Virus record (IMG/VR): IMGVR_UViG_2734482790_000003 | Reading direction: 5' to 3' (one strand) | Length of the DNA stretch: 38,122 nt | DNA from: a virus | Taxonomy: Duplodnaviria > Heunggongvirae > Uroviricota > Caudoviricetes | Shown here: positions 1 through 37,835 of the stretch, in pieces | Layout: each line of letters begins with the position of its first letter | Position numbering within the stretch: position 1 is the first letter of the stretch | The notes under the pieces: generated by a model | Seen by the model: the letters and a program-made list of their open reading frames with translations, nothing else | What the model was told of the DNA's origin: nothing | Database searches by the model: none | Made by a program: the position numbers and the translations under genes

Positions 1-1053
1 TTACGGGGTAATGCCAACCGCTGCCGCCACTTTGTCGCCACTTGGCAGCGTTGCCAGAGGATTGAAACGGAGCGCCGTTTCCAGATGATCCGGTGCCAGA
101 TGTGCGTAACGCATAGTCATTTTTATATCGTGGTGTCCGAGAATTTTTTGTAAGGCCAGAATGTTTCCACCCGACATCATGAAGTGCGCCGCAAACGTAT
201 GGCGCAGAACGTGTGTGAGTTGACCGCGAGGGAGCACGATAGACGTTTTTTCCATCACGGATAAAAATTGAAAATAGCAGTCTGTGAAGAAATTGAACCC
301 ATCAAGCGCCATGATCTCTTCGTAAAGCTCTTTACTGATAGGGATGCTTCTGTTTTTCTTCCCCTTCGTTCTTACAAAGGTAATTCGGTATTTGGTCACC
401 TGTGAACGAGTAAGATTTACGGCTTCTCGCCAGCGTGCGCCTGTGCTTAAGCATATCTTAACTACCAGTGCCAGAATTGGGTCCTGACGTTTGCAATCAG
501 CCAGTAATTCAACAATCTGCTCATGGGTAAGCCATGCCATCTCTTTTTCTGCGATGGTGAATTTTCGCATGTTCTCCAGTGGGTTCGGATACGACCATTC
601 GCCCAGGCGGGATAGTTCGCTAAAAACACTACTTAGATAGCTTTGCTCCAGGTTAATGGTGACCGGGCTTGCTCCTTTCTTCCATTTCTCGCTGAAGTAG
701 ATCTCACCTGTCAGGCGTTTATCTCGATAGTGGGCAAACATTTTAGAGGTTAGATCAGTTGCAAGGGGATTGCCCAGAGCGTCAACCATCAGCAGCAATT
801 TGTCATAGACATGCTGCCCAGCAGTCAGTGATTTACCATGTAGTTTGAACCATAGCTCAACCACGTCTTTCAGTGTTCGACGATCCACTGATTCACCTAG
901 CCAGGGCTTTGCTTCGGTTTCTTCCATCGTGTGACGCTCAAAAGCCAGTGCTTCGCCTTTGGTGGCGAATTGTTTACGCACACGACGCCCACTACGTCCG
1001 GCGGGGTAACATTCGCAAAGCCATTTTCCTGTGGTGAGTTTTCGTACAGCCAT
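1..1053 (-). CDS. int: Tyrosine integrase, P2/186-type
   Basis: ORF 1..1131(-). Start placed at internal Met (MAVRKLTTGKWLCECYPAG...), which matches how P2-family integrases begin. C-terminal HxxR (LRHTFAAHF) and catalytic Tyr region (MTMRYAHL). Stop codon is window bases 1-3. Confidence 0.85.
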   Translation of the reverse strand: MAVRKLTTGKWLCECYPAGRSGRRVRKQFATKGEALAFERHTMEETEAKPWLGESVDRRTLKDVVELWFKLHGKSLTAGQHVYDKLLLMVDALGNPLATDLTSKMFAHYRDKRLTGEIYFSEKWKKGASPVTINLEQSYLSSVFSELSRLGEWSYPNPLENMRKFTIAEKEMAWLTHEQIVELLADCKRQDPILALVVKICLSTGARWREAVNLTRSQVTKYRITFVRTKGKKNRSIPISKELYEEIMALDGFNFFTDCYFQFLSVMEKTSIVLPRGQLTHVLRHTFAAHFMMSGGNILALQKILGHHDIKMTMRYAHLAPDHLETALRFNPLATLPSGDKVAAAVGITP

Positions 1054-1241
1054 AAAAAATGCCCTCCAATAGAGAGCATTTTTACTGTATGTATAACCAG
1101 TGTCAATGTATGAAATCCTGCGACCATACATCTCACTGAAGCCATAATGAAGTAGGCTATTCTTTTTGCTATGTGATCATGTAACTTTTGCGGTTAACCT
1201 GTGGCTCATTTTTATTTTAGGCGCAGATTTAAAAGCAAAAG

Positions 1242-1433
1242 TTATCGTGAGTTTTTAGTACAGATTTTTTTGGATTTACTAATAGTTCCATCATTGCAAA
1301 CGAATTTGCCATCAGAGGTACAGTGAGAAACACCTCCCTTTTTCCCTGAGCAGGGATAATTTCTAGCATAGGTAGCTAGTGGGTTTAATAACAAAGAACA
1401 TGACAAAACCACAAAAAATACCTTACCAAGCAT
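1242..1433 (-). CDS. Small secreted cysteine-rich peptide (63 aa), unknown function
   Basis: Hydrophobic signal-peptide-like N-terminus ([23 protein letters not shown]) followed by a ~40-aa Lys/Gly-rich region with 4 Cys. Strong SD (GGGAGG) 6 nt upstream of ATG. Lies directly downstream of cI on the same strand, in AT-rich DNA. Confidence 0.5.
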
Positions 1434-1448
1434 AATTTCCTCCCGGTA

Positions 1449-2024
1449 CTATTTAACATACTTGACTGTTAAACTTATAATTTTACCAATTATTTCAATG
1501 TCTTCTATCTTACATTCAAAGGCTCTGTTTCCACCCTCGACGAAGATTCTTCCACCGGGTAAACGAGTAATGTCACGGATCGTTATTTCGCCATCAATAC
1601 TTATTACCCATTTACCATCACGTATATCATCAAATTCCTTATCACAAATAAATTCAGAATTATTATCTGTGATTACAAAAAGATTCTTGAATGCCGACGG
1701 TAGAAATTCTCTATCGAAAATATAAAAACCGTCTTCACACAAGGCCCCATCAGATAATACATATTTAGCAACTTCCATAGTATTTGTATTACCTGAAGTT
1801 TGCTTTGAACCATGCCCGGTTGTGAGCCAATTAAGCGAGGTGCCTGTTTCAAGGGCGCACTGGATTACCCATTCTGCTGGGAATGAGTCACGCATGTAGC
1901 GTGTGGCGAGTGTACTTTTAGAGATTCCTAAATGATCGCACAACGCCTGTCGAGTCTTGAATCCATAAGCTTCTACCATGCGCTCTATGGCGCCTCGTCC
2001 GCCTTTCTCCAAATTCATGGTCAC
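1449..2024 (-). CDS. cI: Immunity repressor CI, phage 186-type (191 aa)
   Basis: Length and sequence resemble 186 CI (N-terminal HTH ...AYGF...ALETG..L.WL.TG; C-terminal KLPGG..FVEGG..FEC). Position between int and the divergent apl. Confidence 0.8.
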   Translation of the reverse strand: MTMNLEKGGRGAIERMVEAYGFKTRQALCDHLGISKSTLATRYMRDSFPAEWVIQCALETGTSLNWLTTGHGSKQTSGNTNTMEVAKYVLSDGALCEDGFYIFDREFLPSAFKNLFVITDNNSEFICDKEFDDIRDGKWVISIDGEITIRDITRLPGGRIFVEGGNRAFECKIEDIEIIGKIISLTVKYVK

Positions 2025-2042
2025 TCCAAGTGAACTTTTATC

Positions 2043-2071
2043 TTGACGATTTCACCGTGCGATCGTATGTT
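2043..2071 (+). promoter_or_regulatory. Candidate lytic promoter pR in the cI-apl switch region
   Basis: TTGACG (2043-2048), 17-bp spacer, TATGTT (2066-2071), about 70 nt upstream of apl. Direct repeats CGATCGTAT / CGATCCGTAT, each containing a GATC, flank the -10 region. Confidence 0.4.
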
Positions 2072-2143
2072 TATGGTGTTCACAAAATACAAACGATCCG
2101 TATTCGTCCTGATTAATCATCATTAAACGAGGAATGTTGCATC

Positions 2144-2914: not shown

Positions 2915-3115
2915 ATGCTGACGAAAGAACCATCATTTGCATCGCTGCTGGTTAAACAAAGCCCGGCAATGCATTACGGTCACGGCTGGATCATGGGGGA
3001 GGATGGTAAACGCTGGCATCCGTGCCGTTCACAAGATGAATTGCTGGCAGAACTATCTACGAAAAAACGGGGGAACAAATGGCTATTGAAGGCACTGCGG
3101 CGACTGTTCCATTAA
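2915..3115 (+). CDS. Early-region hypothetical protein (possible fil/dhr-position gene)
   Basis: ORF 2885..3115 trimmed to the internal Met, which has an SD (GAGGTG). Sits immediately after cII. Confidence 0.4.
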   Translation: MLTKEPSFASLLVKQSPAMHYGHGWIMGEDGKRWHPCRSQDELLAELSTKKRGNKWLLKALRRLFH

Positions 3116-3420
3116 GCCCCGGTGAACGCCTGAATGGACTTAATCACATTGCGGAGTTAAGGGCGAAAGTTTTTGGCCTGAATATTGAGTCAGAGCTTGA
3201 GCGGTTTATTAAAGATATGCGTGATTCACGGGATATTAATAGCGAACAAAATAAACGGGCACTGGCTGCCATATTCTTTATGGCAAAAATTCCAGCTGAA
3301 CGTCATAGCATCAGCATTAATGAGCTGACCACTGACGAAAAGCGGGAGTTGATTAAAGCAATGAATCATTTTCGTGCAGTGGTGAGCTTATTTCCCAGAC
3401 GGCTAACCATGCCGAATTAA
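3079..3420 (+). CDS. Early-region hypothetical protein (113 aa)
   Basis: ORF with SD-like GGGGGA upstream; same strand and operon position as the other early genes. Confidence 0.45.
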   Translation: MAIEGTAATVPLSPGERLNGLNHIAELRAKVFGLNIESELERFIKDMRDSRDINSEQNKRALAAIFFMAKIPAERHSISINELTTDEKRELIKAMNHFRAVVSLFPRRLTMPN

Positions 3421-3487
3421 CCAACTAATGAAATTAATGGCGTAAACCCGCCGGGCATCCCTTTATCTAAATTCAGGAGAATTGATT

Positions 3488-3721
3488 ATGCGTAATATTG
3501 AAACCCTCCCGACCAAAACCGGACCGGATGACGCAGGGCTTAATATTTTACTGACAGAGGCTCGTCTGGAAGAACGCCGGGCAAGGGCTGAAGCAATGGC
3601 AGCTCGCCTTGATAGCCTGGCGTGTCATATCACATCCCGCCAGCTAACCCACGTCGAAGCGGCAGAACTGCTTCGTATGACTGCTGAAGCAATCCAGAAC
3701 GAAGCGCAGGAGATCCACTAA
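3488..3721 (+). CDS. Early-region hypothetical protein (~77 aa)
   Basis: ORF 3482..3721; ATG at 3488 preceded by AGGAGA. Confidence 0.45.
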   Translation: MRNIETLPTKTGPDDAGLNILLTEARLEERRARAEAMAARLDSLACHITSRQLTHVEAAELLRMTAEAIQNEAQEIH

Positions 3722-3948
3722 TGGCTGATGCAATGGATCTCGTACAGCAGCGCGTTGAAGAAGAACGCCAACGCCATATCCGTGCTGCCCGTGCCAAAAC
3801 GCCGGGCGTGTCCCGCGTGCTTTGCATTGAGTGTGAAGCGCCAATTCCGCCAGCACGCCGCCGTGCCATTCCGGGTGTGCAGCTTTGCATTACCTGTCAG
3901 GAAATCGCAGAGCTGAAAGGCAAACATTACAACGGAGGTGCTGTATGA
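3721..3948 (+). CDS. TraR/DksA-family C4 zinc-finger protein
   Basis: 75 aa with CIECEAPIP...CITCQ (CxxC-N17-CxxC), typical of TraR/DksA-type phage proteins. Confidence 0.7.
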   Translation: MADAMDLVQQRVEEERQRHIRAARAKTPGVSRVLCIECEAPIPPARRRAIPGVQLCITCQEIAELKGKHYNGGAV

Positions 3949-4802
3949 GCACCATCCTGAAATGGGCGGGAAATAAAACTGCCATAATGTCCGAACTAAA
4001 AAAACATCTTCCTGCTGGCCCGCGACTGGTTGAACCTTTCGCGGGTTCCTGTGCTGTGATGATGGAGACGGATTATCCCAGCTATCTGGTTGCGGATATT
4101 AATCCTGATTTAATCAACCTCTATAAAAAGGTTGCCGCTGATTGTGAATCGTTTATATCTCGCGCCAGAGTTTTATTTGAGATCGCAAACAGGGAGGTGG
4201 CTTATTACAACATAAGGCAGGAGTTTAATTACTCAACTGAAATTACTGATTTCATGAAAGCGGTATATTTCCTGTATCTCAATCGTCACGGTTACCGTGG
4301 TTTATGTCGCTATAACAAGAGCGGGCATTTCAACATTCCCTACGGTAATTATAAAAATCCGTATTTCCCTGAAAAAGAAATTCGCGCATTTGCAGAAAAG
4401 GCCCAGCGAGCAACGTTTATCTGCGCCAGCTTTGATGAAACGCTGGCGATGTTGAAGGCGGGGGATGTGGTGTATTGCGATCCGCCGTATGACGGTACGT
4501 TTTCCGGCTATCACACTGACGGCTTCACTGAAGATGACCAGTATCACCTGGCATCTGTTCTTGAACATCGGTCATCAGAAGGACATCCGGTCATTGTTTC
4601 TAACAGTGACACATCCCTGATCCGTTCGCTGTATCGCAATTTTACTCACCACTACATCAAGGCAAAACGCAGCATCGGTGTGGCAGCTGGCGAGGGTAAA
4701 TCAGCAACAGAAATCATTGCTGTTTCCGGGCCGCGCTGCTGGGTGGGATTTGATTATTCGCGTGGCGTGGATAGTTCTGCCGTGTACGGAGTACGTGCAT
4801 GA
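3945..4802 (+). CDS. dam: DNA adenine methyltransferase (Dam-like, D12 class)
   Basis: N-terminal W.G.K and FAGSCAV (AdoMet motif I) plus DPPY catalytic motif ([12 protein letters not shown]). Its stop overlaps the gene A start (ATGA at 4799-4802). Confidence 0.85.
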
Positions 4803-7213
4803 GTCATGCCGATATGAACAACTGCTGCGGCTTTAACGAAGCTGCCGCATCGTTCTCATGGAACAGCTCGAAAAAGGCCATTAACCCTTATCTGGACCCG
4901 GTGGAAGTTGCGCCGGTTTCTACGCTTTCAAATCTGATCACTCTGTACGCTGCCGATAACGAGCAGGAACAGCTGCGCCGTGAGGCGCTGAGTGATCAGG
5001 TCTGGGAGCGTTATTTCTTTAATGAATCCCGTGATCCTGTCCAGCGCGAAATGGAACAGGATAAGCTCATTAGTCGGGCAAAGCTGGCGCATGAGCAGCA
5101 GCGTTTTAATCCGGATATGGTCATTCTGGCGGACGTCAACGCCCAGCCTTCCCATATCAGCAAGCCGCTGATGCAACGTATTGAATACTTCAGCAGCCTG
5201 GGCAGGCCAAAGGCTTATTCCCGCTATTTACGTGAGACGATTAAGCCATGTCTGGAACGACTGGAGCATGTACGCGACAGTCAGCTATCTGCATCTTTTC
5301 GCTTTATGGCAAGCCATGAAGGGCTGGACGGCCTGCTGATCCTGCCTGAAATGAGTCAGGATCAGGTGAAACGCCTGTCCACCCTGGTAGCTGCGCATAT
5401 GAGTATGTGCTTTGATGCCGCTTGTGGCGATTTGTATGCCACCGATGACGTTAAGCCAGAAGAAATCCGCAATACATGGGAAAGGGTGGCAGCGGAAACC
5501 CTGCGTCTGGATGTCATCCCGCCTGCGTTTGAGCAACTCCGTCGGAAAAGAAACCGCCGTAAACCCGTGCCCTATGAACTCATTCCGGGTTCGCTGGCGC
5601 GTATGTTGTGCGCCGACTGGTGGTATCGGAAATTATGGAAGATGCGTTGCGAATGGCGGGAAGAGCAGTTGCGTGCTGTCTGCCTTGTCAGCAAAAAAGC
5701 ATCTCCCTATGTCAGCTATGAAGCCGTGTTGCATAAACGTGAGCAGCGCCGTAAGTCGCTGGAGTTTTTCCGTTCTCATGAACTGGTGAACGAAGACGGC
5801 GACACGCTAGACATGGAGGATGTGGTAAACGCCAGCAGCAGCAACCCTGCGCATCGCCGCAATGAGATGATGGCCTGTGTTAAAGGTCTGGAGCTTATCG
5901 CGGAAATGCGCGGTGACTGCGCCGTTTTCTACACCATCACCTGTCCGTCACGTTTCCATTCCACGCTAAATAACGGCAGGCCCAACCCGACCTGGACAAA
6001 TGCGACGGTAAGACAAAGCAGCGATTATCTGGTCGGTATGTTTGCTGCATTTCGTAAGGCGATGCACAAAGCCGGGTTGCGCTGGTATGGCGTGCGGGTG
6101 GCTGAGCCGCATCACGACGGCACAGTTCACTGGCACCTGTTGTGTTTCATGCGCAAAAAAGACCGCCGCGCCATTACAGCATTGTTGCGTAAGTTTGCTA
6201 TCCGTGAAGACCGCGAGGAGCTGGGCAATAACACGGGGCCGCGCTTTAAGTCTGAGCTGATTAACCCGCGCAAAGGAACGCCGACAAGCTACATAGCGAA
6301 ATACATCAGTAAGAACATTGACGGGCGTGGTCTGGCTGGCGAGATCAGCAAGGAAACGGGTAAATCTCTGCGTGATAACGCTGAATACGTGAATGCCTGG
6401 GCGTCTTTGCATCGTGTTCAGCAATTCCGCTTCTTTGGCATTCCGGGGCGTCAGGCTTACCGTGAACTGCGATTGCTGGCTGGTCAGGCGGTAAGGCAAA
6501 AGGGGGACAAAAAAGCAGGTGCGCCGGTACTGGATAACCCGCGCCTTGATGCCATCCTGGCTGCTGCTGATGCTGGTTGTTTTGCCACCTACATCATGAA
6601 GCAGGGCGGCGTACTGGTTCCCCGTAAATATCACCTCATCAGAACCGCTTATGAAATCAACGAAGAGCCGACCGTCTATGGCGATCACGGCATTCGTATT
6701 TATGGCATCTGGTCACCCATTGCAGAGGGCAAGATCTGCACTCATGCAGTGAAGTGGAAAATGGTTCGTAAAGCCGTTGACGTTCAGGAGGCGGCAGCCG
6801 ACCAGGGCGCTTGCGCCCCTTGGACTCGTGGCAATAACTGTCCCCTTGCTGAAAATTTGAACCAACAAGGGAAAGACAAATCAGCTGATGGGGATACCAG
6901 AACGGATATCACCCGCATGGATGACAAGGAGTTGCACGATTACCTGCACAGTATGAGCAAAAAAGAGCGCCGGGAACTGGCAGCAAGGTTATGCCTGGTT
7001 AAACCGAAACGGCGTAAAGACTACAAACAGCGAATTACAGACCATCAGCGACAGCAGCTCGTCTATGAGCTGAAGTCCAGAGGATTTGATGGTAGCGAGA
7101 AAGAGGTCGATTTACTCCTTCGCGGCGGCAGTATTCCGTCAGGAGCAGGCCTGCGTATCTTCTATCGGAACCAGCGTTTGCAGGAAGATGATAAGTGGCG
7201 GGATCTGTATTAA
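4799..7213 (+). CDS. A: Replication initiation endonuclease (P2 gpA / 186 A family)
   Basis: 804-aa protein; position after the early genes; paired tyrosines in [11 protein letters not shown] typical of rolling-circle initiators. Confidence 0.85.
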
Positions 7214-7365: not shown

Positions 7366-7554
7366 ATGCAGGACTATTTTTTGGAGTCTTTGAAGCTCCA
7401 GCGCATTGATTTTTTTCTTAAGCTTGTAGCGGCTAGTGAGTGTAGTGATGAAGAGAAGGGGCTGGCTTTGCAGTGGGTTTCTGAACTGACAGATGAACTC
7501 ATGGCAAAAATCAGAAGCCACGAATACAACCGCTCAATGGATGTCATCAGCTGA
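7366..7554 (+). CDS. Small protein in the SOS-controlled operon (62 aa), hypothetical
   Basis: ORF with AGGAGG SD, immediately downstream of the LexA box. Confidence 0.5.
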   Translation: MQDYFLESLKLQRIDFFLKLVAASECSDEEKGLALQWVSELTDELMAKIRSHEYNRSMDVIS

Positions 7555-7564
7555 GGTGACTTTT

Positions 7565-7798
7565 ATGCGCATTGAAATAATGATCGATAAAGAGCAGAAG
7601 ATTAACCAGTCTACCCTGGACGCCCTTGAATCCGAGCTTTACCGCAATCTGCGCCCCCTGTATCCCAAAACGGTAATTCGTATCCGCAAAGGTAGCTCTA
7701 ACGGTGTGGAACTGACCGGACTGCAACTGGATGAAGAAAGAAAACAAGTGATGAAAATTATGCAGAAAGTGTGGGAAGACGACAGCTGGCTGCATTAA
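7565..7798 (+). CDS. DinI-like protein (possible Tum-type antirepressor component)
   Basis: 78 aa starting MRIEIMIDK..., with DinI-family features (short alpha/beta protein, acidic C-terminus ...WEDDSWL). SD AGGTGA. Downstream of the LexA box. Confidence 0.7.
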   Translation: MRIEIMIDKEQKINQSTLDALESELYRNLRPLYPKTVIRIRKGSSNGVELTGLQLDEERKQVMKIMQKVWEDDSWLH

Positions 7799-7942: not shown

Positions 7943-9802
7943 TTAGTGAGGGCTGGTTATTACGTAGTCGCTCTGGTCATCCTCTCCCAGCCTCTCAGGT
8001 ATTAAATCGTTGAAGGAAATAGTATTACTCTTAGGCTTTTCTTCAATTGGAAGTTCAGCTACCCTTAATTTGAGCGGCATGGGGCAGACGATACCACTAA
8101 AAATACAGGTTCCTGTAGATAGCGTTGGAATCGACTCTTCAGTCAGTCGATCTATATATGATACTGATTTTTCAATTGCGTACAGATCATTCTGATTAAT
8201 AAGGCGATGAATAAAATAATTGTGTGCTTGGGATATGATTGTCGACGATATATCATTAGGGCGTTGACTGGAAATTGTGATAAAAACTCCAAATTTTCTC
8301 CCCTCCTTTATGATTTCCTCAAAAGTTTCCAGACGATAATCTCTCCAACTTTCCGTTTCCCGAAAAGAAGTATTAGACAAAATATTGTGGGCTTCATCTA
8401 TAATGATGTGCAGTGTAGATTTCTCTGTAGACATTTTCTTCATATTGTAAGCCCACTTGGCTATCAAAAGAGGAAGCGTTTTTTTCATGGTTATATTAAC
8501 CATATTTAGATTCACAACCGTGAAATTATGTTCACCCCAAAAATCAGACTGTCCGGAAGTATCAAATATTTTGGCTATATCTTTACGGTTAGCACTCATT
8601 CTATTTATAACTGGTGAAATATGTTCAGGGTTAGACTTGTTAGATAAATATTCCTGTATTAACTGTAAGTACATAAAGTCCAACAGTTCTTCAATCATAT
8701 CAGTTTTAAATGAAAAATTGCTTGCAAGACTGAATAGATAGGAGCGCTCAGTATCAGCTTCTGTATTGAAAATACTACCACCCCTCAATTTCCATTTATA
8801 TGCAGTTGAATGATACTCAAGATCAGATATAAGTTCTGGGTCATCTTTGAAAATTGGGCTAAGAAACTGATTTATAGTATCGCATTTGGGTTTGTCGCTA
8901 CTAAAGAGATTTTGTCTGACTTTTTTCTTCAGGATATTGCGCATAAACTCAAGAGGATTATCAGCGGTCATCACTTTCTTGCGAAACTCAAGAACTCTCT
9001 TCAGGAAAGGTTTCTGTGTTTTGTCTGTTGCATCGGTTAGAACTGAGAGCATATCATGCTCAAGTAGAACCTCTCTGGGTAGAGGAAGTTTGTCACCATT
9101 TGCATGGTGCGTGTTGAGATTATAAACCGTCTTCTCGTCAGTAATACAGCGTGGGGCAGTATATTCTCCATTAAAGTCGAATAGAATAAATTTGCATCTT
9201 TCACTAAAGTGGTTGCCGAGAATATGTTTAACTTGGGCAATACCTGCTTTGTATAGCGCGGCTAGGGTATTTGACTTTCCGCTGCCTGTATTACCGAAAA
9301 TGGCAATGTGGGAATTAATAAGACCATTGATTGGTAGTGCAATTTCAATATCTTCAAGATCTGTACGAGTAAACCTCATTACAGTTTCGTCTGCATCAGC
9401 TATCTGATGAACCGTCTGTATCATCTCTTCAGTTACCACGAAGACTTCATTGCCGATGAGAGGTAGTTCACGCGAACCACCAATGAAGCAACCAGTACGA
9501 TCAATGTAACCCGTAAGAGTAGAGGTCAGGTATCGCCGATATCGCCAGGCATCACTGCCGCTCCCAGCGAGATGTTTTTCCTCAATGATTCGTTCCGCTT
9601 CAACCTTGCCGATCAGGCTCATGAAACCTTTTTTGATCTCAATGAAGCTACCCACTGATACATTTCTTAGAACTTTTCCCTGATAAAACAAGTCACTGAG
9701 ATTTTTGTTTTTATCGACCAAAATTGTCACAGCGCGTCCAGAAACCTCACAGACTTCGCCTATACGGAGCACCGCTTCCTCTTCAGTAAAATGCCTGCTC
9801 AT
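7943..9802 (-). CDS. herA: HerA/FtsK-like ATPase, partner of the SIR2 protein (SIR2-HerA defence system)
   Basis: Walker A GNTGSGKSNT and Walker B/DEAH-like IIIDEAH. Start taken at MSRHFTEE with GGGAGG SD, overlapping the SIR2 stop (ATGA). AT-rich composition. Confidence 0.75.
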   Translation of the reverse strand: MSRHFTEEEAVLRIGEVCEVSGRAVTILVDKNKNLSDLFYQGKVLRNVSVGSFIEIKKGFMSLIGKVEAERIIEEKHLAGSGSDAWRYRRYLTSTLTGYIDRTGCFIGGSRELPLIGNEVFVVTEEMIQTVHQIADADETVMRFTRTDLEDIEIALPINGLINSHIAIFGNTGSGKSNTLAALYKAGIAQVKHILGNHFSERCKFILFDFNGEYTAPRCITDEKTVYNLNTHHANGDKLPLPREVLLEHDMLSVLTDATDKTQKPFLKRVLEFRKKVMTADNPLEFMRNILKKKVRQNLFSSDKPKCDTINQFLSPIFKDDPELISDLEYHSTAYKWKLRGGSIFNTEADTERSYLFSLASNFSFKTDMIEELLDFMYLQLIQEYLSNKSNPEHISPVINRMSANRKDIAKIFDTSGQSDFWGEHNFTVVNLNMVNITMKKTLPLLIAKWAYNMKKMSTEKSTLHIIIDEAHNILSNTSFRETESWRDYRLETFEEIIKEGRKFGVFITISSQRPNDISSTIISQAHNYFIHRLINQNDLYAIEKSVSYIDRLTEESIPTLSTGTCIFSGIVCPMPLKLRVAELPIEEKPKSNTISFNDLIPERLGEDDQSDYVITSPH

Positions 9803-35267: not shown

Positions 35268-35353
35268 CGCTGCCGCCATTTTGTCGCCATCGTTAAAAAA
35301 CAGTGTTTCTAACATCATGATTTTAAACAGCTTAAATTTTAGGCAACAAAAAA

Positions 35354-35390
35354 CCCATCAACCTTGAACCGAAATGGCGGGGTTGATGGG
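35354..35390 (-). terminator. Candidate rho-independent terminator downstream of ybjL (within the prophage-host junction region)
   Basis: Inverted repeat CCCATCAACC...GGTTGATGGG followed on the minus strand by a T tract. Confidence 0.4.
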
Positions 35391-35502
35391 CTCCACAAAA
35401 TGGGGACATCAAAGAAAAGCAGTGGCACTAATTAAGACTGATGCCCTGCGGAAAAGTTCTGCGGTTGTGCAAAAAAATTTCATTTTCAGGGCAACTTCAG
35501 TT

Positions 35503-37188
35503 TTATCCTAATCCTGGCCATACCATGACGATGATTGTCCCTGCCAGCGTCAGCAGGACGTTGGCGATTGCATAGGTGCCCGCATAGCCCAGCGCCGGGA
35601 TGTTACTGCGAGCTGTATCACTGATGATCTCCATTGCCGGCGCGCAGGTACGTGCGCCCATCATTGCGCCGAACAACAGCGCGCGGTTCATTCGCAATAC
35701 ATAAGCACCGAACAAGAAACAGATAACCACGGGCACCAGACTGACAATCAATCCGGCAATCAACATCTGACCGCCAATCGCGCCCAGGCCGTTATTAATA
35801 CCGCTACCGGCGCTCAGACCAACGCCTGCCATAAACACCATCAAGCCGAACTCTTTCACCATGCTTAATGCACCCTGCGGAATGTAACCGAAGGTCGGGT
35901 GGTTAGCACGCATAAAGCCCAGCATAATTCCGGCGAATAACAACCCGGCAGCGTTCCCCATGCCGAAACTGAATGTGCTGAACTGGAAGGTGATCATCCC
36001 GATCATCAGCCCAATAACAAAGAAGGCGCAAAATGCCAGCAGGTCAGTGACCTGGCTGTGAATCGAGATAAAGCCGATGCGATCGGCGATGGTTTTTACG
36101 CGACGGGCATCACCGCTGACTTGTAAAACGTCACCTTTGTTAAGCACGACGTTGTCATCTATCGGCATCTCAATCTGGCTACGAATGACGCGGTTAAGGA
36201 AGCAACCGTGATCGGTCAACTTCAGTTGTGCGAGACGTTTACCTACAGCGTTATGGTTTTTAACGACCACTTCTTCAGTGACGATACGCATGTCGAGAAG
36301 GTCACGATCGAAAACTTCTTTACCGTTACGGAAGCTGGGATCGAGTCGGGCATGGGCGTCGGGATAGCCTACCAACGCTATTTCATCGCCCATTTGTAGC
36401 ACGGCATCACCGTCTGGATTTGCCAGAATCCCGTTACGTCGAATACGTTCAATGTAGCAGCCGGTTTGTCGATAAATACCCAGTTCACGCAGATTTTTGC
36501 CGTCGGTCCAGGCCACCAGCTCCGGGCCGACGCGATAGGCGCGGATCACCGGTAAATAAACCTTACGGTTGGCATCAGTGTCCAGGCCACGTTCGCGGGC
36601 GATTTGCTGGGCGCTGGTCTGTAAGTCCTGATGCTGCAATTTCGGCAAGTAACGCGCACCAACAATCAAACTCACCAGACCGATTAAATAGGTTAAGGCA
36701 TACCCGAGGCTCAGATTATCCAGTGCCAGTGAGAGCTGCCTGCTTTCCATGCCGGAATGACGCAGTGTATCGCCAGCACCGACCAGAACCGGTGTCGACG
36801 TCATAGAGCCTGCTAACATACCGGCCGTCAGGCCAATATCCCAGCCAAACAGCTTACCTAACCCTAAGGCGATCACCAGCGCACTGCCAACCATCACCAG
36901 TGCTAACATTAGGTAATTTTTCCCATCGCGAAAAAAAATGGAAAAAAAGTTCGGTCCGGCTTCAACCCCAACACAGAAAATAAACAGCATAAAGCCAAGA
37001 TTAAGCGCATCGGTGTTAATGCTGAAATGTTGTTGGCCTAATAACAGCGATACGACTAAAACGCCAATGGAATTACCCAGTTGGATCGAACCAAGTCGTA
37101 ACTTTCCGAGACATAGCCCAAGCGCGAGGACCACAAATAATAACAGAATGTAATTCCCATTTAACAATTCGGCGACGTTTATATTCAC
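35503..37188 (-). CDS. ybjL: Putative transport protein YbjL (host gene)
   Basis: 561-aa multi-pass membrane protein with duplicated TM domains around a central cytoplasmic region; recognised as E. coli YbjL. Confidence 0.8.
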
Positions 37189-37457
37189 GGAGGCTAACTT
37201 CTTGTTTACTAGTAAGCTGTTGAAAGAAATGGTAATTTACGATAATGTTTTTTACCAGAATTCAGGGCGCAGATTCATTCAGCGCACCTAAACGATAGTA
37301 AAGTAACAATATATTTTACTAGTGTAATCACATTAGGTATCAACGGCTATATGAATTGCGTTGGCCTATATTAGCATGGAATGCGAAGCGGCTTTATCTT
37401 ACTGAACGCCACACTGGCGAAAAATGTGTTCGATAGACGCAGTGTCAGGAGGAACGA

Positions 37458-37835
37458 GTGAAACATAAACAACGTTGGGCGGGGGCAATCTGCTGTTTTG
37501 TCCTCTTCATTGTGGTGTGCCTTTTTCTGGCGACGCACATGAAAGGCGCTTTTCGGGCTGCCGGGCATCCTGAAATCGGCTTGCTATTTTTCATTCTTCC
37601 TGGAGCAGTCGCCAGCTTCTTTTCACAGCGTAGAGAAGTCCTGAAACCTCTGTTTGGCGCAATGCTGGCGGCACCCTGTTCGATGCTCATTATGCGGCTG
37701 TTTTTTTCACCGACGCGCTCATTCTGGCAAGAGCTGGCATGGTTATTAAGTGCGGTGTTCTGGTGTGCGCTGGGGGCACTGTGTTTCTTATTTATCAGTA
37801 GTTTGTTTAAACCACAGCACAGAAAAAATCAGTAA
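37458..37835 (+). CDS. ybjM: Inner membrane protein YbjM (host gene)
   Basis: 125-aa membrane protein, divergent from ybjL, in conserved E. coli synteny with grxA. Confidence 0.75.
   Translation: MKHKQRWAGAICCFVLFIVVCLFLATHMKGAFRAAGHPEIGLLFFILPGAVASFFSQRREVLKPLFGAMLAAPCSMLIMRLFFSPTRSFWQELAWLLSAVFWCALGALCFLFISSLFKPQHRKNQ

What the first reader, a model, noticed from the sequence alone, without database searches (positions are those of the whole stretch)
1242..1433. Small secreted Cys-rich peptide gene between cI and int (candidate lysogenic-conversion moron)
A 63-aa ORF with a clear signal-peptide-like N-terminus, 4 Cys in a ~40-aa Lys/Gly-rich mature region, and a strong SD (GGGAGG) sits in AT-rich DNA immediately downstream of cI, so it would be expressed in the lysogen from the repressor transcript. 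Small exported peptides at this position could be superinfection-exclusion factors or toxin/bacteriocin-like peptides. I do not recognise the sequence.
Basis: inference. Interest (0 to 1): 0.5.

Follow-up and report, generated by a model that had tools for sequence, protein, structure and literature searches.

The report
Exported YdcA-family mini-protein behind prophage repressor
The small open reading frame is a real, strongly conserved gene for a secreted 40-residue, disulfide-bonded, basic protein of the uncharacterised YdcA family that travels with the repressor gene of 186/P2-like prophages and probably acts in the cell envelope of the lysogen, but its function is still unproven.

Summary
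Window 1242-1433 (minus strand) is a 63-codon gene with a GGGAGG ribosome-binding site. It starts 15 nt after the stop of a 186-type cI gene and lies 188 nt upstream of int, in DNA of 34-36% GC.

The sequence is not unknown. It passes the NCBIfam cut-off for the YdcA family (PRK10040/NF007463) and matches PHROG 6000. It is 57% identical to chromosomal E. coli YdcA, a predicted periplasmic protein of unknown function.

About 12% of complete E. coli genomes carry it, the same number that carry this cI type. Selection on the mature part is strongly purifying (dN/dS 0.02-0.04), while the signal peptide drifts.

The order "prophage repressor, then ydcA-like gene" recurs with three unrelated repressor architectures in Gamma- and Betaproteobacteria, including Haemophilus phage HP2, where the gene is not annotated. 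The cI-int junction is a cargo and defence hotspot.

Family-wide, the domain is fused to at least three unrelated secreted-nuclease families. It also sits in a T6SS gene cluster, and its only solved relative is Dis2 of the Legionella Dot/Icm T4SS.

My best reading is a lysogeny-expressed periplasmic moron, most likely an exclusion or foreign-DNA-barrier factor. The function was not tested. Interest is moderate.

The parts
1242..1433 (-). ydcA-like gene: 63-aa precursor of a YdcA-family (PRK10040 / PHROG 6000 / PF27300) exported mini-protein
   Evidence: ORF. NCBIfam NF007463 114.6 bits against a cut-off of 93. phrog_6000 3e-34. RefSeq WP_001513672.1 is named 'YdcA family protein'. dN/dS over the whole gene is 0.06-0.08.
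1365..1433 (-). Predicted Sec signal peptide (aa 1-23, [23 protein letters not shown]), with predicted SPase I cleavage after Ala23
   Evidence: Ala23 is invariant in the family alignment. The region is variable but always hydrophobic. dN exceeds 1 against the Yersinia copies while the mature part stays at dN 0.07-0.09. The cleavage site is inferred.
1245..1364 (-). Mature 40-aa peptide [40 protein letters not shown]: 4 Cys, net charge about +7, pI 9.7
   Evidence: The core P27-C58 is invariant or nearly so across 28-31 diverse homologues. dN/dS is 0.02-0.04. AlphaFold pLDDT is 86-89 for residues 31-50, with a beta-hairpin at 35-38/44-46.
1439..1444 (-). Shine-Dalgarno sequence GGGAGG, 5 nt upstream of the ATG
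   Evidence: Read directly from the sequence.
1449..2024 (-). 186-type cI repressor gene (PGAP start at 2018), first gene of the lysogenic operon. Its stop lies 15 nt before the ydcA-like ATG
   Evidence: Pfam Phage_CI_repr and Phage_CI_C. RefSeq annotation. This cI type is found in 648 E. coli genomes, the same number as the small gene.
1054..1241 (-). Structured spacer between the ydcA-like stop and the int start. The last 30 nt (1054-1083) form a hairpin, AAAAAUGCUCUC-UAUU-GGAGGGCAUUUUUU, that covers the int Shine-Dalgarno sequence and ends at the int ATG
   Evidence: RNA fold of -53.9 kcal/mol, z = -4.9 against shuffles. Sequence. Its function as an attenuator or terminator is inferred only.
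1..1053 (-). Tyrosine integrase (int), distal gene of the lysogenic module
   Evidence: Pfam Int_N and Phage_integrase. PGAP coordinates. Present in 1135 E. coli genomes, so it is more widespread than the cI/ydcA-like pair.
2025..2143 (.). Divergent control region (pR/pL by analogy with phage 186) between cI and the apl/cox-like gene at 2144-2365
   Evidence: Gene layout cI | apl-like, cII (Phage_CP76 4e-42), fil and so on. 186 annotation of pR, pL and the 'lysogenic operon'. Only a pR-like consensus hit was found, at 2043-2071. pL was not located.

Best explanation
Window 1242-1433 (minus strand) is a functional gene for a YdcA-family protein. It rides as the second cistron of the prophage's repressor operon, which reads cI, then the ydcA-like gene, then a structured spacer, then int.

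Proposed mechanism, step by step:
1. In the lysogen it is transcribed together with cI from the lysogenic promoter and translated from its own strong ribosome-binding site.
2. The 63-aa precursor is exported by Sec and cut by signal peptidase I after Ala23.
3. The 40-aa, highly basic mature peptide is locked by two disulfides in the periplasm.
4. There it works as a small binding module in the outer part of the periplasm.

I think its most likely role is a lysogen-protecting exclusion moron that interferes with incoming foreign DNA or injection machinery, for example superinfecting phages and possibly conjugative or transforming DNA. This would be analogous in position and location to Glo of Vibrio phage K139, and to rexAB behind lambda cI.

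What is shown: the gene is real, its family membership, purifying selection, linkage to cI, and the hotspot context. What is inferred: co-transcription, export, disulfides, and above all the exclusion function and its target.
For: Gene and family:
- NF007463 scores 114.6 bits against a cut-off of 93, and phrog_6000 gives 3e-34.
- The protein is 57% identical to chromosomal YdcA.
- 465 clusters at 50% identity match the family profile.

Selection:
- The mature core has dN/dS 0.02-0.04 between E. coli alleles.
- dS is saturated while dN is 0.07-0.09 against Yersinia prophage copies. The signal peptide diverges freely.

Operon:
- There is a 15-nt gap after cI, a dedicated Shine-Dalgarno sequence, and no minus-strand terminator.
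- Phage 186 annotates cI-int as one 'lysogenic operon'.
- In HP2 the homologue's ATG overlaps the cI stop.

Linkage to the immunity module:
- The gene and this cI type each occur in 648 of 5426 E. coli genomes, while int occurs in 1135.

Recurrence downstream of repressors with three different architectures:
- 186-type CI: E. coli, Buttiauxella, three Yersinia species, Haemophilus HP2/S2.
- HTH_3 plus Peptidase_S24: Comamonas, Oceanisphaera.
- Short XRE type: Iodobacter and others.

Hotspot:
- The same slot holds PD-Lambda-1 in one relative, and a PDC-S20 KAP NTPase next to the ydcA-like gene in another.
- The literature names cI-int a defence hotspot in K139-like phages (PMC9122126). It also places 8% of P2 defence systems between integrase and primase (PMC13586616).

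Precedent:
- K139 has the order cI-orf2-glo-int, with Glo annotated 'periplasmic protein; involved in phage exclusion'.

Link to nucleic acids:
- The domain is fused right after the signal peptide to SNase, Endonuclease_NS and PLD-type nucleases, and weakly to HNH.
- The gene after it in HP2 encodes an exported OB-fold (tRNA_anti-like) protein.
- The core is basic across the family, with a median net charge of +4.
- It is also carried by Moraxella and Acinetobacter phages and by small mobilisable plasmids.
Against: No experiment and no expression data were available, so exclusion is argued only from position and analogy.
- PADLOC has no model that hits it.
- It is not homologous to Glo.
- Many family members are ordinary chromosomal genes: K-12 ydcA, and a conserved position inside a T6SS cluster. 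The basic function is therefore not phage-specific.
- Net charge varies across the family (-1 to +7), and the Dis2 lobes are not basic, which weakens a general DNA-binding claim.
- The nuclease fusions could reflect envelope anchoring rather than substrate binding.
- The only phenotype reported for the chromosomal paralogue is sensitivity of a deletion mutant to 3-hydroxypropionate (PMC7642389). That points to stress tolerance rather than exclusion.
- The pL promoter was not located by the consensus scan.
Confidence: 0.4

Rival explanations
1. Envelope-fitness or stress-tolerance factor. The prophage copy does in the lysogen what chromosomal YdcA does, for example helping the envelope cope with acid or organic-acid stress. 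It would then be classic lysogenic conversion that benefits host growth rather than blocking other phages.
For: - The mature core is about 75% identical to K-12 YdcA, and the whole protein is 57% identical over 53 aa.
- A ydcA deletion made E. coli W sensitive to 300 mM 3-hydroxypropionate. The same paper describes ydcA as YdcI-controlled and induced at pH 5 (PMC7642389).
- An RpoS-type constitutive promoter peak lies in the rydC-ydcA spacer (PMC5493296).
- The extreme conservation of the mature domain across Alpha-, Beta- and Gammaproteobacteria suggests a conserved host target rather than an arms-race partner.
Against: - Every E. coli already has the chromosomal paralogue, so a second copy adds little unless dosage matters.
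- The single phenotype comes from one study at an extreme concentration and was not complemented in the text I read.
- The idea does not explain the repeated placement behind prophage repressors, in a defence hotspot, on small mobilisable plasmids, and fused to nucleases.
Confidence: 0.2
2. Accessory or decoy of envelope-spanning nanomachines. The YdcA domain would be a small outer-membrane-proximal adaptor used by the T6SS and the type IVB secretion system. The free prophage copy would modulate or block such machines, for example by protecting the lysogen from T6SS attack, tuning the host's own T6SS, or hindering phage tail penetration.
For: - A long-form family member (132-146 aa) sits at a fixed position in about 15 Enterobacterales species loci. 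The order is TssF-TssG-TssJ-TssE, a 156-aa unknown protein, the YdcA-like gene, then VasL/ImpA_N.
- The only solved relative is Dis2 (Lpg0823), a two-lobed, disulfide-pinned component of the Legionella Dot/Icm outer-membrane cap. The profile E-value is 1.8e-4.
- Dis2 is the Foldseek top hit, with probability 0.85-0.87 and 38-40% identity over 37 columns. hhalign gives E 8.7e-5.
- A Dis2-like protein carries the same precomputed Pfam family, PF27300.
- Dis2 contacts DotK, DotC and DotD near the outer membrane (PMC8486379, PMC12716638).
Against: - Dis2 is dispensable for T4SS structure and function (PMC12716638), so even the reference protein has no defined role.
- No T6SS or T4SS genes lie next to the prophage copy.
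- This reading does not explain the nuclease fusions.
Confidence: 0.12
3. Secreted cationic antimicrobial peptide, bacteriocin or toxin made by the lysogen to kill competitors.
For: A 40-aa, +7, four-cysteine peptide is reminiscent of defensin-like antimicrobial peptides.
Against: - No immunity, processing or export genes are adjacent. The neighbours are cI and int.
- It has a Sec/SPase I-type leader, not a double-glycine leader.
- The family has conserved chromosomal copies in every E. coli. It also occurs as tandem repeats, as the N-terminal domain of nucleases and, distantly, as a structural T4SS subunit.
- Sec export alone would leave it in the periplasm of the producer.
Confidence: 0.05
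4. Not a functional protein gene. The ORF would be a chance reading frame in an AT-rich spacer whose real role is to regulate int expression.
For: The region is AT-rich, and the RNA just downstream (1054-1260) is significantly structured.
Against: - The HMM score is above the curated cut-off.
- 465 family clusters match the profile.
- dN/dS is 0.02-0.04, with 7-10 synonymous against 1-2 non-synonymous differences in the mature part.
- The position is conserved in prophages whose cI is only 31-36% identical.
Confidence: 0.02

Closest known systems
E. coli K-12 YdcA (57 aa, b1419; NCBIfam PRK10040.1-1)
   Same: Same family and the same design: a variable Sec signal peptide followed by the PCSGxKGG[IV]SHC...[17 protein letters not shown] core with four Cys. 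It is 57% identical over 53 aa. It is described as a predicted periplasmic protein of unknown function (bioRxiv 10.1101/2024.02.12.579971).
   Different: YdcA is chromosomal, lying between cybB/rydC and hokB-trg, and is not on a prophage. The window protein belongs to a different NCBIfam equivalog: it passes NF007463 but scores below the NF007462 cut-off (68.5 bits against 118). It also has a longer basic C-terminal tail and sits in a repressor operon.
Legionella pneumophila Dis2 (Lpg0823), Dot/Icm T4SS outer-membrane-cap subunit (PDB 7MUC/7MUD)
   Same: The only solved relative. Each Dis2 lobe has the motif CxxxGG[VI]...G..[LV]VCN[ND]Gxx S...C and is disulfide-stabilised. A Dis2-like protein shares the precomputed Pfam family PF27300.
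Glo of Vibrio cholerae phage K139 (Peduoviridae)
   Same: Same genomic logic: a signal-peptide protein encoded between cI and int in the PL 'lysogenic operon' of a P2/HP1-related phage. It is annotated as periplasmic and involved in phage exclusion.
   Different: There is no sequence relationship beyond the signal peptide (hhalign probability 6.6%). Glo is 137 aa and not Cys-rich. Its exclusion role comes from the record's annotation and older literature that I could not read.
Exclusion genes co-transcribed with repressors or acting in the envelope (lambda rexAB behind cI; T4 Sp/Imm; P22 SieA; HK97 gp15)
   Same: These are expressed in the lysogen, or early in infection, to block other phages. 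For lambda rexAB, the genes lie directly downstream of cI on the maintenance transcript. This comparison rests on my own knowledge and was not tested here.
   Different: No homology was tested or expected. Those proteins are membrane proteins or larger periplasmic proteins with known phenotypes, and none belongs to the YdcA family.
Defence and cargo hotspots of P2-like prophages (Rousset et al. 2022; NAR 2026 gkag898)
   Same: The cI-int junction behaves as a variable cargo slot. 186 has it empty, and relatives carry PD-Lambda-1, a PDC-S20 KAP NTPase or unknown genes. The cI-int hotspot is described for K139-like Vibrio phages (PMC9122126).
   Different: The ydcA-like gene is not a recognised defence gene (no PADLOC hit). 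It is not variable cargo within this cI lineage: it is always the first gene after cI, and other cargo is added downstream of it.

Membership tests
YdcA family (NCBIfam PRK10040 / NF007463; PHROG 6000; Pfam PF27300) | Profile-HMM score above the curated cut-off | tested here: met
   NF007463 scores 114.6 bits against a cut-off of 93, covering profile positions 1-58 of 58. phrog_6000 gives 3.1e-34 over positions 1-56 of 56. PF27300.1 is precomputed for the identical database protein P0001. The local Pfam copy lacks this model.
YdcA family (NCBIfam PRK10040 / NF007463; PHROG 6000; Pfam PF27300) | Signal peptide followed by a core of about 32 residues with four conserved Cys and the GG[VI]/CNDG/SxSKK motifs | tested here: met
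   P27, C28, S29, K32, G33, G34, C38, F44, C46, D48, G49, S52, S54, K55 and C58 are invariant in 28 diverse homologues and are all present in the window protein.
Sec/SPase I-exported periplasmic protein | n-h-c signal peptide with small residues at -3 and -1, and no lipobox | tested here: met
   The precursor reads MLGK / [12 protein letters not shown] / NPLATYA, then Arg24. Across the family, 96% have a hydrophobic window, a conserved Ala lies 4-5 residues before Cys1, and A/S/T/V occupies -3 in about 85%. Only 3 of 188 have a lipobox-like motif. This is a rule-based assessment, because SignalP and LipoP were not available.
Sec/SPase I-exported periplasmic protein | Demonstrated periplasmic location, signal cleavage and disulfide formation | not testable with these tools
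   This needs PhoA or Bla fusions, cell fractionation with mass spectrometry, and dsbA mutants.
Prophage moron / lysogenic-conversion gene | An extra gene inserted between conserved phage genes and absent from close relatives | tested here: met
   In phage 186 the cI stop abuts the int start. Other relatives have different genes in the slot. int occurs in 1135 E. coli genomes, but the small gene in only 648.
Prophage moron / lysogenic-conversion gene | Deviant base composition | tested here: inconclusive
   GC is 0.34-0.37 at 1100-1700 against about 0.5 elsewhere. However, the 3' half of cI is equally AT-rich, so the whole immunity cassette deviates, not just this gene.
Prophage moron / lysogenic-conversion gene | Expressed in the lysogen | not testable with these tools
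   Inferred from the 15-nt gap after cI, the gene's own Shine-Dalgarno sequence, the absence of a terminator, and the 186 and K139 'lysogenic operon' annotations. No transcript data were available.
Superinfection-exclusion protein of the K139 Glo type | Homology to Glo | tested here: not met
   hhalign probability is 6.6%, with only the signal peptides aligning.
Superinfection-exclusion protein of the K139 Glo type | Encoded between cI and int in the lysogenic operon and predicted to be periplasmic | tested here: met
Superinfection-exclusion protein of the K139 Glo type | Reduces infection by other phages | not testable with these tools
   This needs plaque, plating-efficiency and DNA-entry assays.
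Known anti-phage defence systems (PADLOC-DB 2.0) | Match to a defence-protein model | tested here: not met
   0 families at E <= 1. Neighbouring cargo in relatives does match: PD-Lambda-1 and PDC-S20.
Dis2-like T4SS outer-membrane-cap subunit | Sequence and fold similarity to a Dis2 lobe | tested here: inconclusive
Dis2-like T4SS outer-membrane-cap subunit | Two-lobed architecture and a T4SS gene context | tested here: not met
   The window protein has a single domain and is flanked by cI and int.
Bacteriocin / microcin | A dedicated leader (double-glycine type) and adjacent immunity and export genes | tested here: not met
   The leader is of Sec type and the neighbours are cI and int.
Bacterial lipoprotein | A lipobox [LVI][ASTVI][GAS]C at the end of the signal peptide | tested here: not met
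   C12 is preceded by V-L-S and sits at residue 12 in the middle of the h-region. It is not conserved in homologues.

The most novel reading that the evidence does not exclude
The YdcA/PF27300 domain could be an unrecognised extracytoplasmic module that binds nucleic acid or another envelope polyanion. Mobile elements across Proteobacteria (prophage repressor operons, phage morons, small mobilisable plasmids) would deploy it as a free periplasmic protein to block entry of competing DNA. That would make it a new single-gene class of exclusion factor. The same domain would serve as the DNA-capturing or envelope-docking head of secreted nucleases, and as an overlooked accessory of T6SS clusters and of the Dot/Icm T4SS (Dis2).
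Probability: 0.2. Interest if true: 0.7.

Novelty: new member of a known kind. Interest (0 to 1): 0.4.

Why it matters
The gene is in about one in eight sequenced E. coli genomes and is more conserved than the repressor it follows. Yet neither it nor its K-12 paralogue YdcA has a known function.

The analysis gives concrete, cheap hypotheses for a 40-residue peptide that can be made synthetically. It sits where exclusion genes sit, directly behind cI in a defence hotspot. It recurs behind unrelated prophage repressors in distant bacteria. Its domain is fused to at least three families of secreted nucleases.

If it proves to be a periplasmic barrier to foreign DNA, it would add a new and very small type of prophage-encoded exclusion factor. 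It would also annotate several hundred protein clusters, including a conserved T6SS-cluster gene. And it would give a family context to Legionella Dis2, which the literature treats as a species-specific orphan.

If it proves to be a stress factor, it is an ordinary lysogenic-conversion gene.

Tried and rejected
- **Local Pfam copy.** No real hit for the 63-aa protein, only a 0.076 chance match. The family model PF27300 is newer than the local library.
- **PADLOC.** No hit.
- **Near-identical DNA in the phage collection.** Only the int 5' end matched, in Klebsiella phages, so this immunity cassette is not in sequenced phage isolates.
- **Retrieving full-length Dis2.** The protein search returned only two N-terminally truncated Dis2-like proteins. 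The homology test therefore stayed weak.
- **Glo homology.** Rejected.
- **Rfam.** No RNA family in or near the gene.
- **Promoter scan.** It found a pR-like site but no pL, plus only a consensus-level site upstream of int. It found no minus-strand terminator.
- **Lipoprotein reading of C12.** Rejected.
- **Bacteriocin reading.** Rejected on gene context.
- **Reading-frame artefact.** Rejected on dN/dS.
- **Literature.** The Nesper et al. 1999 K139 paper could not be read. Searches for PF27300, PRK10040 and 'YdcA family' found nothing functional.
Full report
**1. What is in the sequence**

The window is a 186/P2-like (Peduoviridae-type) prophage of E. coli. On the minus strand, a 186-type repressor gene cI lies at 1449-2024 (Pfam Phage_CI_repr 2.8e-33, Phage_CI_C 2.7e-27). 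It is followed by the reported ORF at 1242-1433 and then by a tyrosine integrase at 1-1053. On the plus strand from 2144 lie an apl/cox-like gene, cII (Phage_CP76), fil and the rest, up to the replication endonuclease A.

The ORF encodes 63 aa. GGGAGG (1439-1444) lies 5 nt before its ATG, and the cI stop codon (1449-1451) lies 15 nt before it. No terminator-like site was found on the minus strand between cI and int. GC is 0.34-0.37 here against about 0.5 elsewhere, although the 3' half of cI shares this composition.

One detail needs adding: a fifth, non-conserved Cys sits inside the signal peptide.

**2. It is a real gene of a named but uncharacterised family**

The protein passes the curated cut-off of NCBIfam NF007463 (PRK10040.1-2; 114.6 bits against 93) and matches phrog_6000 at 3e-34. 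RefSeq calls the identical protein, WP_001513672.1, 'YdcA family protein' or 'hypothetical protein'. Database relatives carry the precomputed Pfam family PF27300, which is missing from the local Pfam copy. It is 57% identical to chromosomal E. coli YdcA, which lies between cybB/rydC and hokB-trg.

An alignment of 28-31 diverse homologues shows a freely varying signal peptide that ends in an invariant Ala. After it comes an almost invariant core, PCSGKKGG[VI]SHC-x2-3-GKF[VI]CNDG[ST]xSxSKKxC.

Among 188 family sequences:
- 96% have a hydrophobic h-region.
- The residue at -3 is A, S, T or V in about 85%.
- Lipoboxes are essentially absent (3 of 188).
- The core has a median net charge of +4.

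The window's mature peptide is 40 aa, 4.3 kDa, with pI 9.7.

Between the two main E. coli alleles (about 93% nucleotide identity) the mature part shows 7-10 synonymous but only 1-2 non-synonymous differences, giving dN/dS 0.02-0.04. Against Yersinia prophage copies, dS is saturated while mature dN is 0.07-0.09, and the signal peptide has dN above 1. This is the signature of a translated, exported protein under strong constraint.

AlphaFold with the family alignment gives a modest model (mean pLDDT 76, rising to 86-89 over residues 31-50) with a beta-hairpin at 35-38/44-46.

**3. It belongs to the immunity module, and the arrangement recurs**

In 5426 complete E. coli genomes, the gene is found in 648 and this cI type also in 648. 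The integrase is found in 1135. The small gene therefore travels with cI, not with int. It is also more conserved than cI: at least 91.7% identity for the small gene (apart from 16 records at 60-80%, at least one of which is the chromosomal ydcA), against down to 80-90% for cI.

The order cI, then ydcA-like, then int also occurs in prophages whose CI is only 31-36% identical and whose Int is 47-53% identical. These are in Buttiauxella and three Yersinia species. It occurs in Haemophilus phages HP2 and S2 as well. There the 60-aa homologue is not annotated, its ATG overlaps the cI stop, and the next gene (orf1) encodes an exported OB-fold (tRNA_anti-like) protein.

In other prophages, several of them P2-like, the gene again lies 0-2 genes downstream of the repressor on the same strand. 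But the repressor there has a different architecture. It is HTH_3 plus Peptidase_S24 in Comamonas and Oceanisphaera, and short XRE-type in Iodobacter, Aquabacterium and others. In Moraxella and Acinetobacter siphophages it is a moron inside the structural module. It also sits on 3.9-5.4-kb plasmids next to Mob genes, in Acinetobacter and Psychrobacter.

**4. The slot is a cargo and defence hotspot**

Phage 186 has cI abutting int. Relatives differ:
- Klebsiella phage 4LV2017 carries an unknown 349-aa gene there.
- E. coli phage vB_EcoM-813R9 carries PD-Lambda-1.
- E. coli JA0072 has cI, then ydcA-like, then a KAP NTPase (PDC-S20), then int.

Rousset et al. 2022 describe the cI-int interval of K139-like Vibrio phages as a defence hotspot (PMC9122126). 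A 2026 survey places 8% of P2 defence systems between integrase and primase (PMC13586616). In K139 itself the lysogenic operon reads cI-orf2-glo-int, with Glo annotated as a periplasmic protein involved in phage exclusion. Glo is not homologous to the window protein, so it is a positional and functional analogue only.

**5. Clues to what the domain does**

A profile search of 1.84 billion representative proteins finds 465 clusters.

Among the longer members, the domain always sits immediately after the signal peptide. It is fused to unrelated nuclease families:
- SNase, in two proteins.
- Endonuclease_NS, in at least three.
- A PLD-type nuclease, in one.
- HNH, weakly.

Other members have two or three tandem copies, or a Cys-rich C-terminal extension.

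In about 15 Enterobacterales species a 132-146-aa form occupies a fixed position in a T6SS cluster. The order is TssF, TssG, TssJ, TssE, a 156-aa unknown protein, the YdcA-like gene, then VasL/ImpA_N. A PD-Lambda-1 homologue and a NERD-UvrD helicase are variably inserted right after it.

The only solved relative is Dis2 (Lpg0823) of the Legionella Dot/Icm T4SS outer-membrane cap:
- Profile E-value 1.8e-4.
- Foldseek top hit, probability 0.85-0.87, 38-40% identity over 37 columns.
- hhalign E 8.7e-5, but only 60% probability.
- A Dis2-like protein carries PF27300.

For chromosomal ydcA, the only functional data I found are these:
- A deletion mutant is sensitive to 300 mM 3-hydroxypropionate, and the paper states that the gene is YdcI-dependent and induced by acid (PMC7642389).
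- An RpoS-type promoter peak lies upstream of it.
- It is described as a predicted periplasmic protein of unknown function.

**6. Interpretation**

Secure: this is a functional, exported, disulfide-rich mini-protein gene of the YdcA family. It is part of the cI immunity cassette and sits in a known type of hotspot.

Inferred: co-transcription with cI, cleavage after Ala23, and two periplasmic disulfides.

The function is unknown. I commit to an envelope-acting exclusion or foreign-DNA-barrier role as the most likely (about 0.3-0.4), for three reasons:
- It sits where exclusion genes sit, and it does so repeatedly and independently.
- It is enriched on mobile elements.
- Its domain is tied to periplasmic or secreted nucleases and, in HP2, to an exported OB-fold protein.

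The main rivals are:
- A general envelope-stress function like that suggested for YdcA (about 0.2).
- An adaptor or decoy role towards T6SS or T4SS-type machines (about 0.12).
- A bacteriocin-like role (about 0.05), which I consider unlikely.
- A non-gene (about 0.02), which is effectively excluded.

**7. Novelty and score**

The exact protein is in RefSeq hundreds of times and belongs to catalogued families, so the object itself is known. What I did not find in the searched literature is:
- Its systematic linkage to prophage repressor operons.
- The nuclease fusions.
- The T6SS-cluster position.
- The likely kinship with Dis2.

I rate it a new member of a known kind (a lysogeny-operon moron from an uncharacterised family), with interest 0.4. 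The most novel reading not excluded is a new single-gene periplasmic exclusion factor built on a widespread polyanion- or DNA-binding domain. I give that about 0.2 probability, and it would deserve about 0.7.

Noticed in passing
window 7943-10857 (minus strand): A SIR2 (9799-10857) plus HerA (7943-9823) anti-phage defence pair sits in the classical P2 hotspot between the replication gene A and the portal gene. PADLOC gives SIR2 6e-211 and HerA 6e-267.
   Followed up: partly
window 11438-13089 (plus strand): A second cargo pair lies in the same hotspot. PDC-M03A (a HipA_C-like kinase fold, 11438-12352) and PDC-M03B (HIRAN domain, 12349-13089) are a candidate defence system in PADLOC. A DinI-like gene lies at 7493-7798.
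   Followed up: partly
window 35345-35423 (minus strand) and 35503-37835: The RybB sRNA gene (Rfam 105 bits) lies just beyond the ogr-like gene. It is followed by a ybjL-like permease and ybjM. In other genomes rcdA flanks int. The prophage therefore sits between rcdA and rybB, and its right end is at about 35.3 kb. The att site was not mapped.
   Followed up: partly
window 1054-1260 (minus strand), especially 1054-1083: The RNA between the ydcA-like stop and int is unusually structured (z = -4.9). The last hairpin (AAAAAUGCUCUC-UAUU-GGAGGGCAUUUUUU) pairs the int Shine-Dalgarno sequence and ends at the int ATG. It may be an attenuator or terminator that keeps Int low in the lysogen. A sigma-70-like site (TTGACA-17-AAAAAT, 1106-1078) overlaps it.
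   Followed up: no
L002 (Haemophilus phage HP2, NC_003315) 2944-3126 and 3136-3900: HP2 and S2 carry an unannotated 60-aa YdcA-family gene whose ATG overlaps the cI stop. The next gene, orf1 (254 aa, with a signal peptide), has a tRNA_anti-like OB-fold domain (2.8e-13). That makes two exported proteins in the lysogenic operon.
   Followed up: partly
L039, L041, L045, L065, L076, L087 and about 9 further loci, around position 5000: A 132-146-aa YdcA-family protein is a fixed member of an Enterobacterales T6SS cluster. It lies between a 156-aa unknown protein (after TssE) and VasL/ImpA_N. A PD-Lambda-1 homologue (414 aa, with an N-terminal TM segment) and a NERD-UvrD helicase are variably inserted right after it. 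This suggests a small defence islet inside the T6SS locus.
   Followed up: partly
PDB 7MUC/7MUD chain AN (Legionella Dis2/Lpg0823); P0228, P0229: Dis2 is described in the literature as Legionella-specific and without homologues. Each of its lobes appears to be a divergent YdcA/PF27300 domain (PMC8486379, PMC12716638). The evidence is suggestive, not conclusive.
   Followed up: partly
P0113, P0218, P0172, P0163, P0181, P0199 (family representatives): The YdcA domain is fused, directly after the signal peptide, to SNase, Endonuclease_NS and PLD-type nuclease domains, and weakly to HNH. Other members have 2-3 tandem copies or a CxC...CTGPRGGxYC C-terminal extension.
   Followed up: partly
L091 (E. 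coli JA0072) 142-1473; L008 (phage vB_EcoM-813R9) 3591-5267: The cI-int slot of related E. coli prophages carries known or candidate defence genes. One relative has a PDC-S20 KAP NTPase downstream of the ydcA-like gene. Another has PD-Lambda-1, annotated there as 'chromosome segregation ATPase'.
   Followed up: yes
L011 (Buttiauxella brennerae) 3734-4579: The CI repressor upstream of the ydcA-like gene is 281 aa and has two Phage_CI_repr HTH stretches, which suggests a duplicated N-terminal domain. An exported 133-aa unknown protein lies between it and the ydcA-like gene.
   Followed up: no
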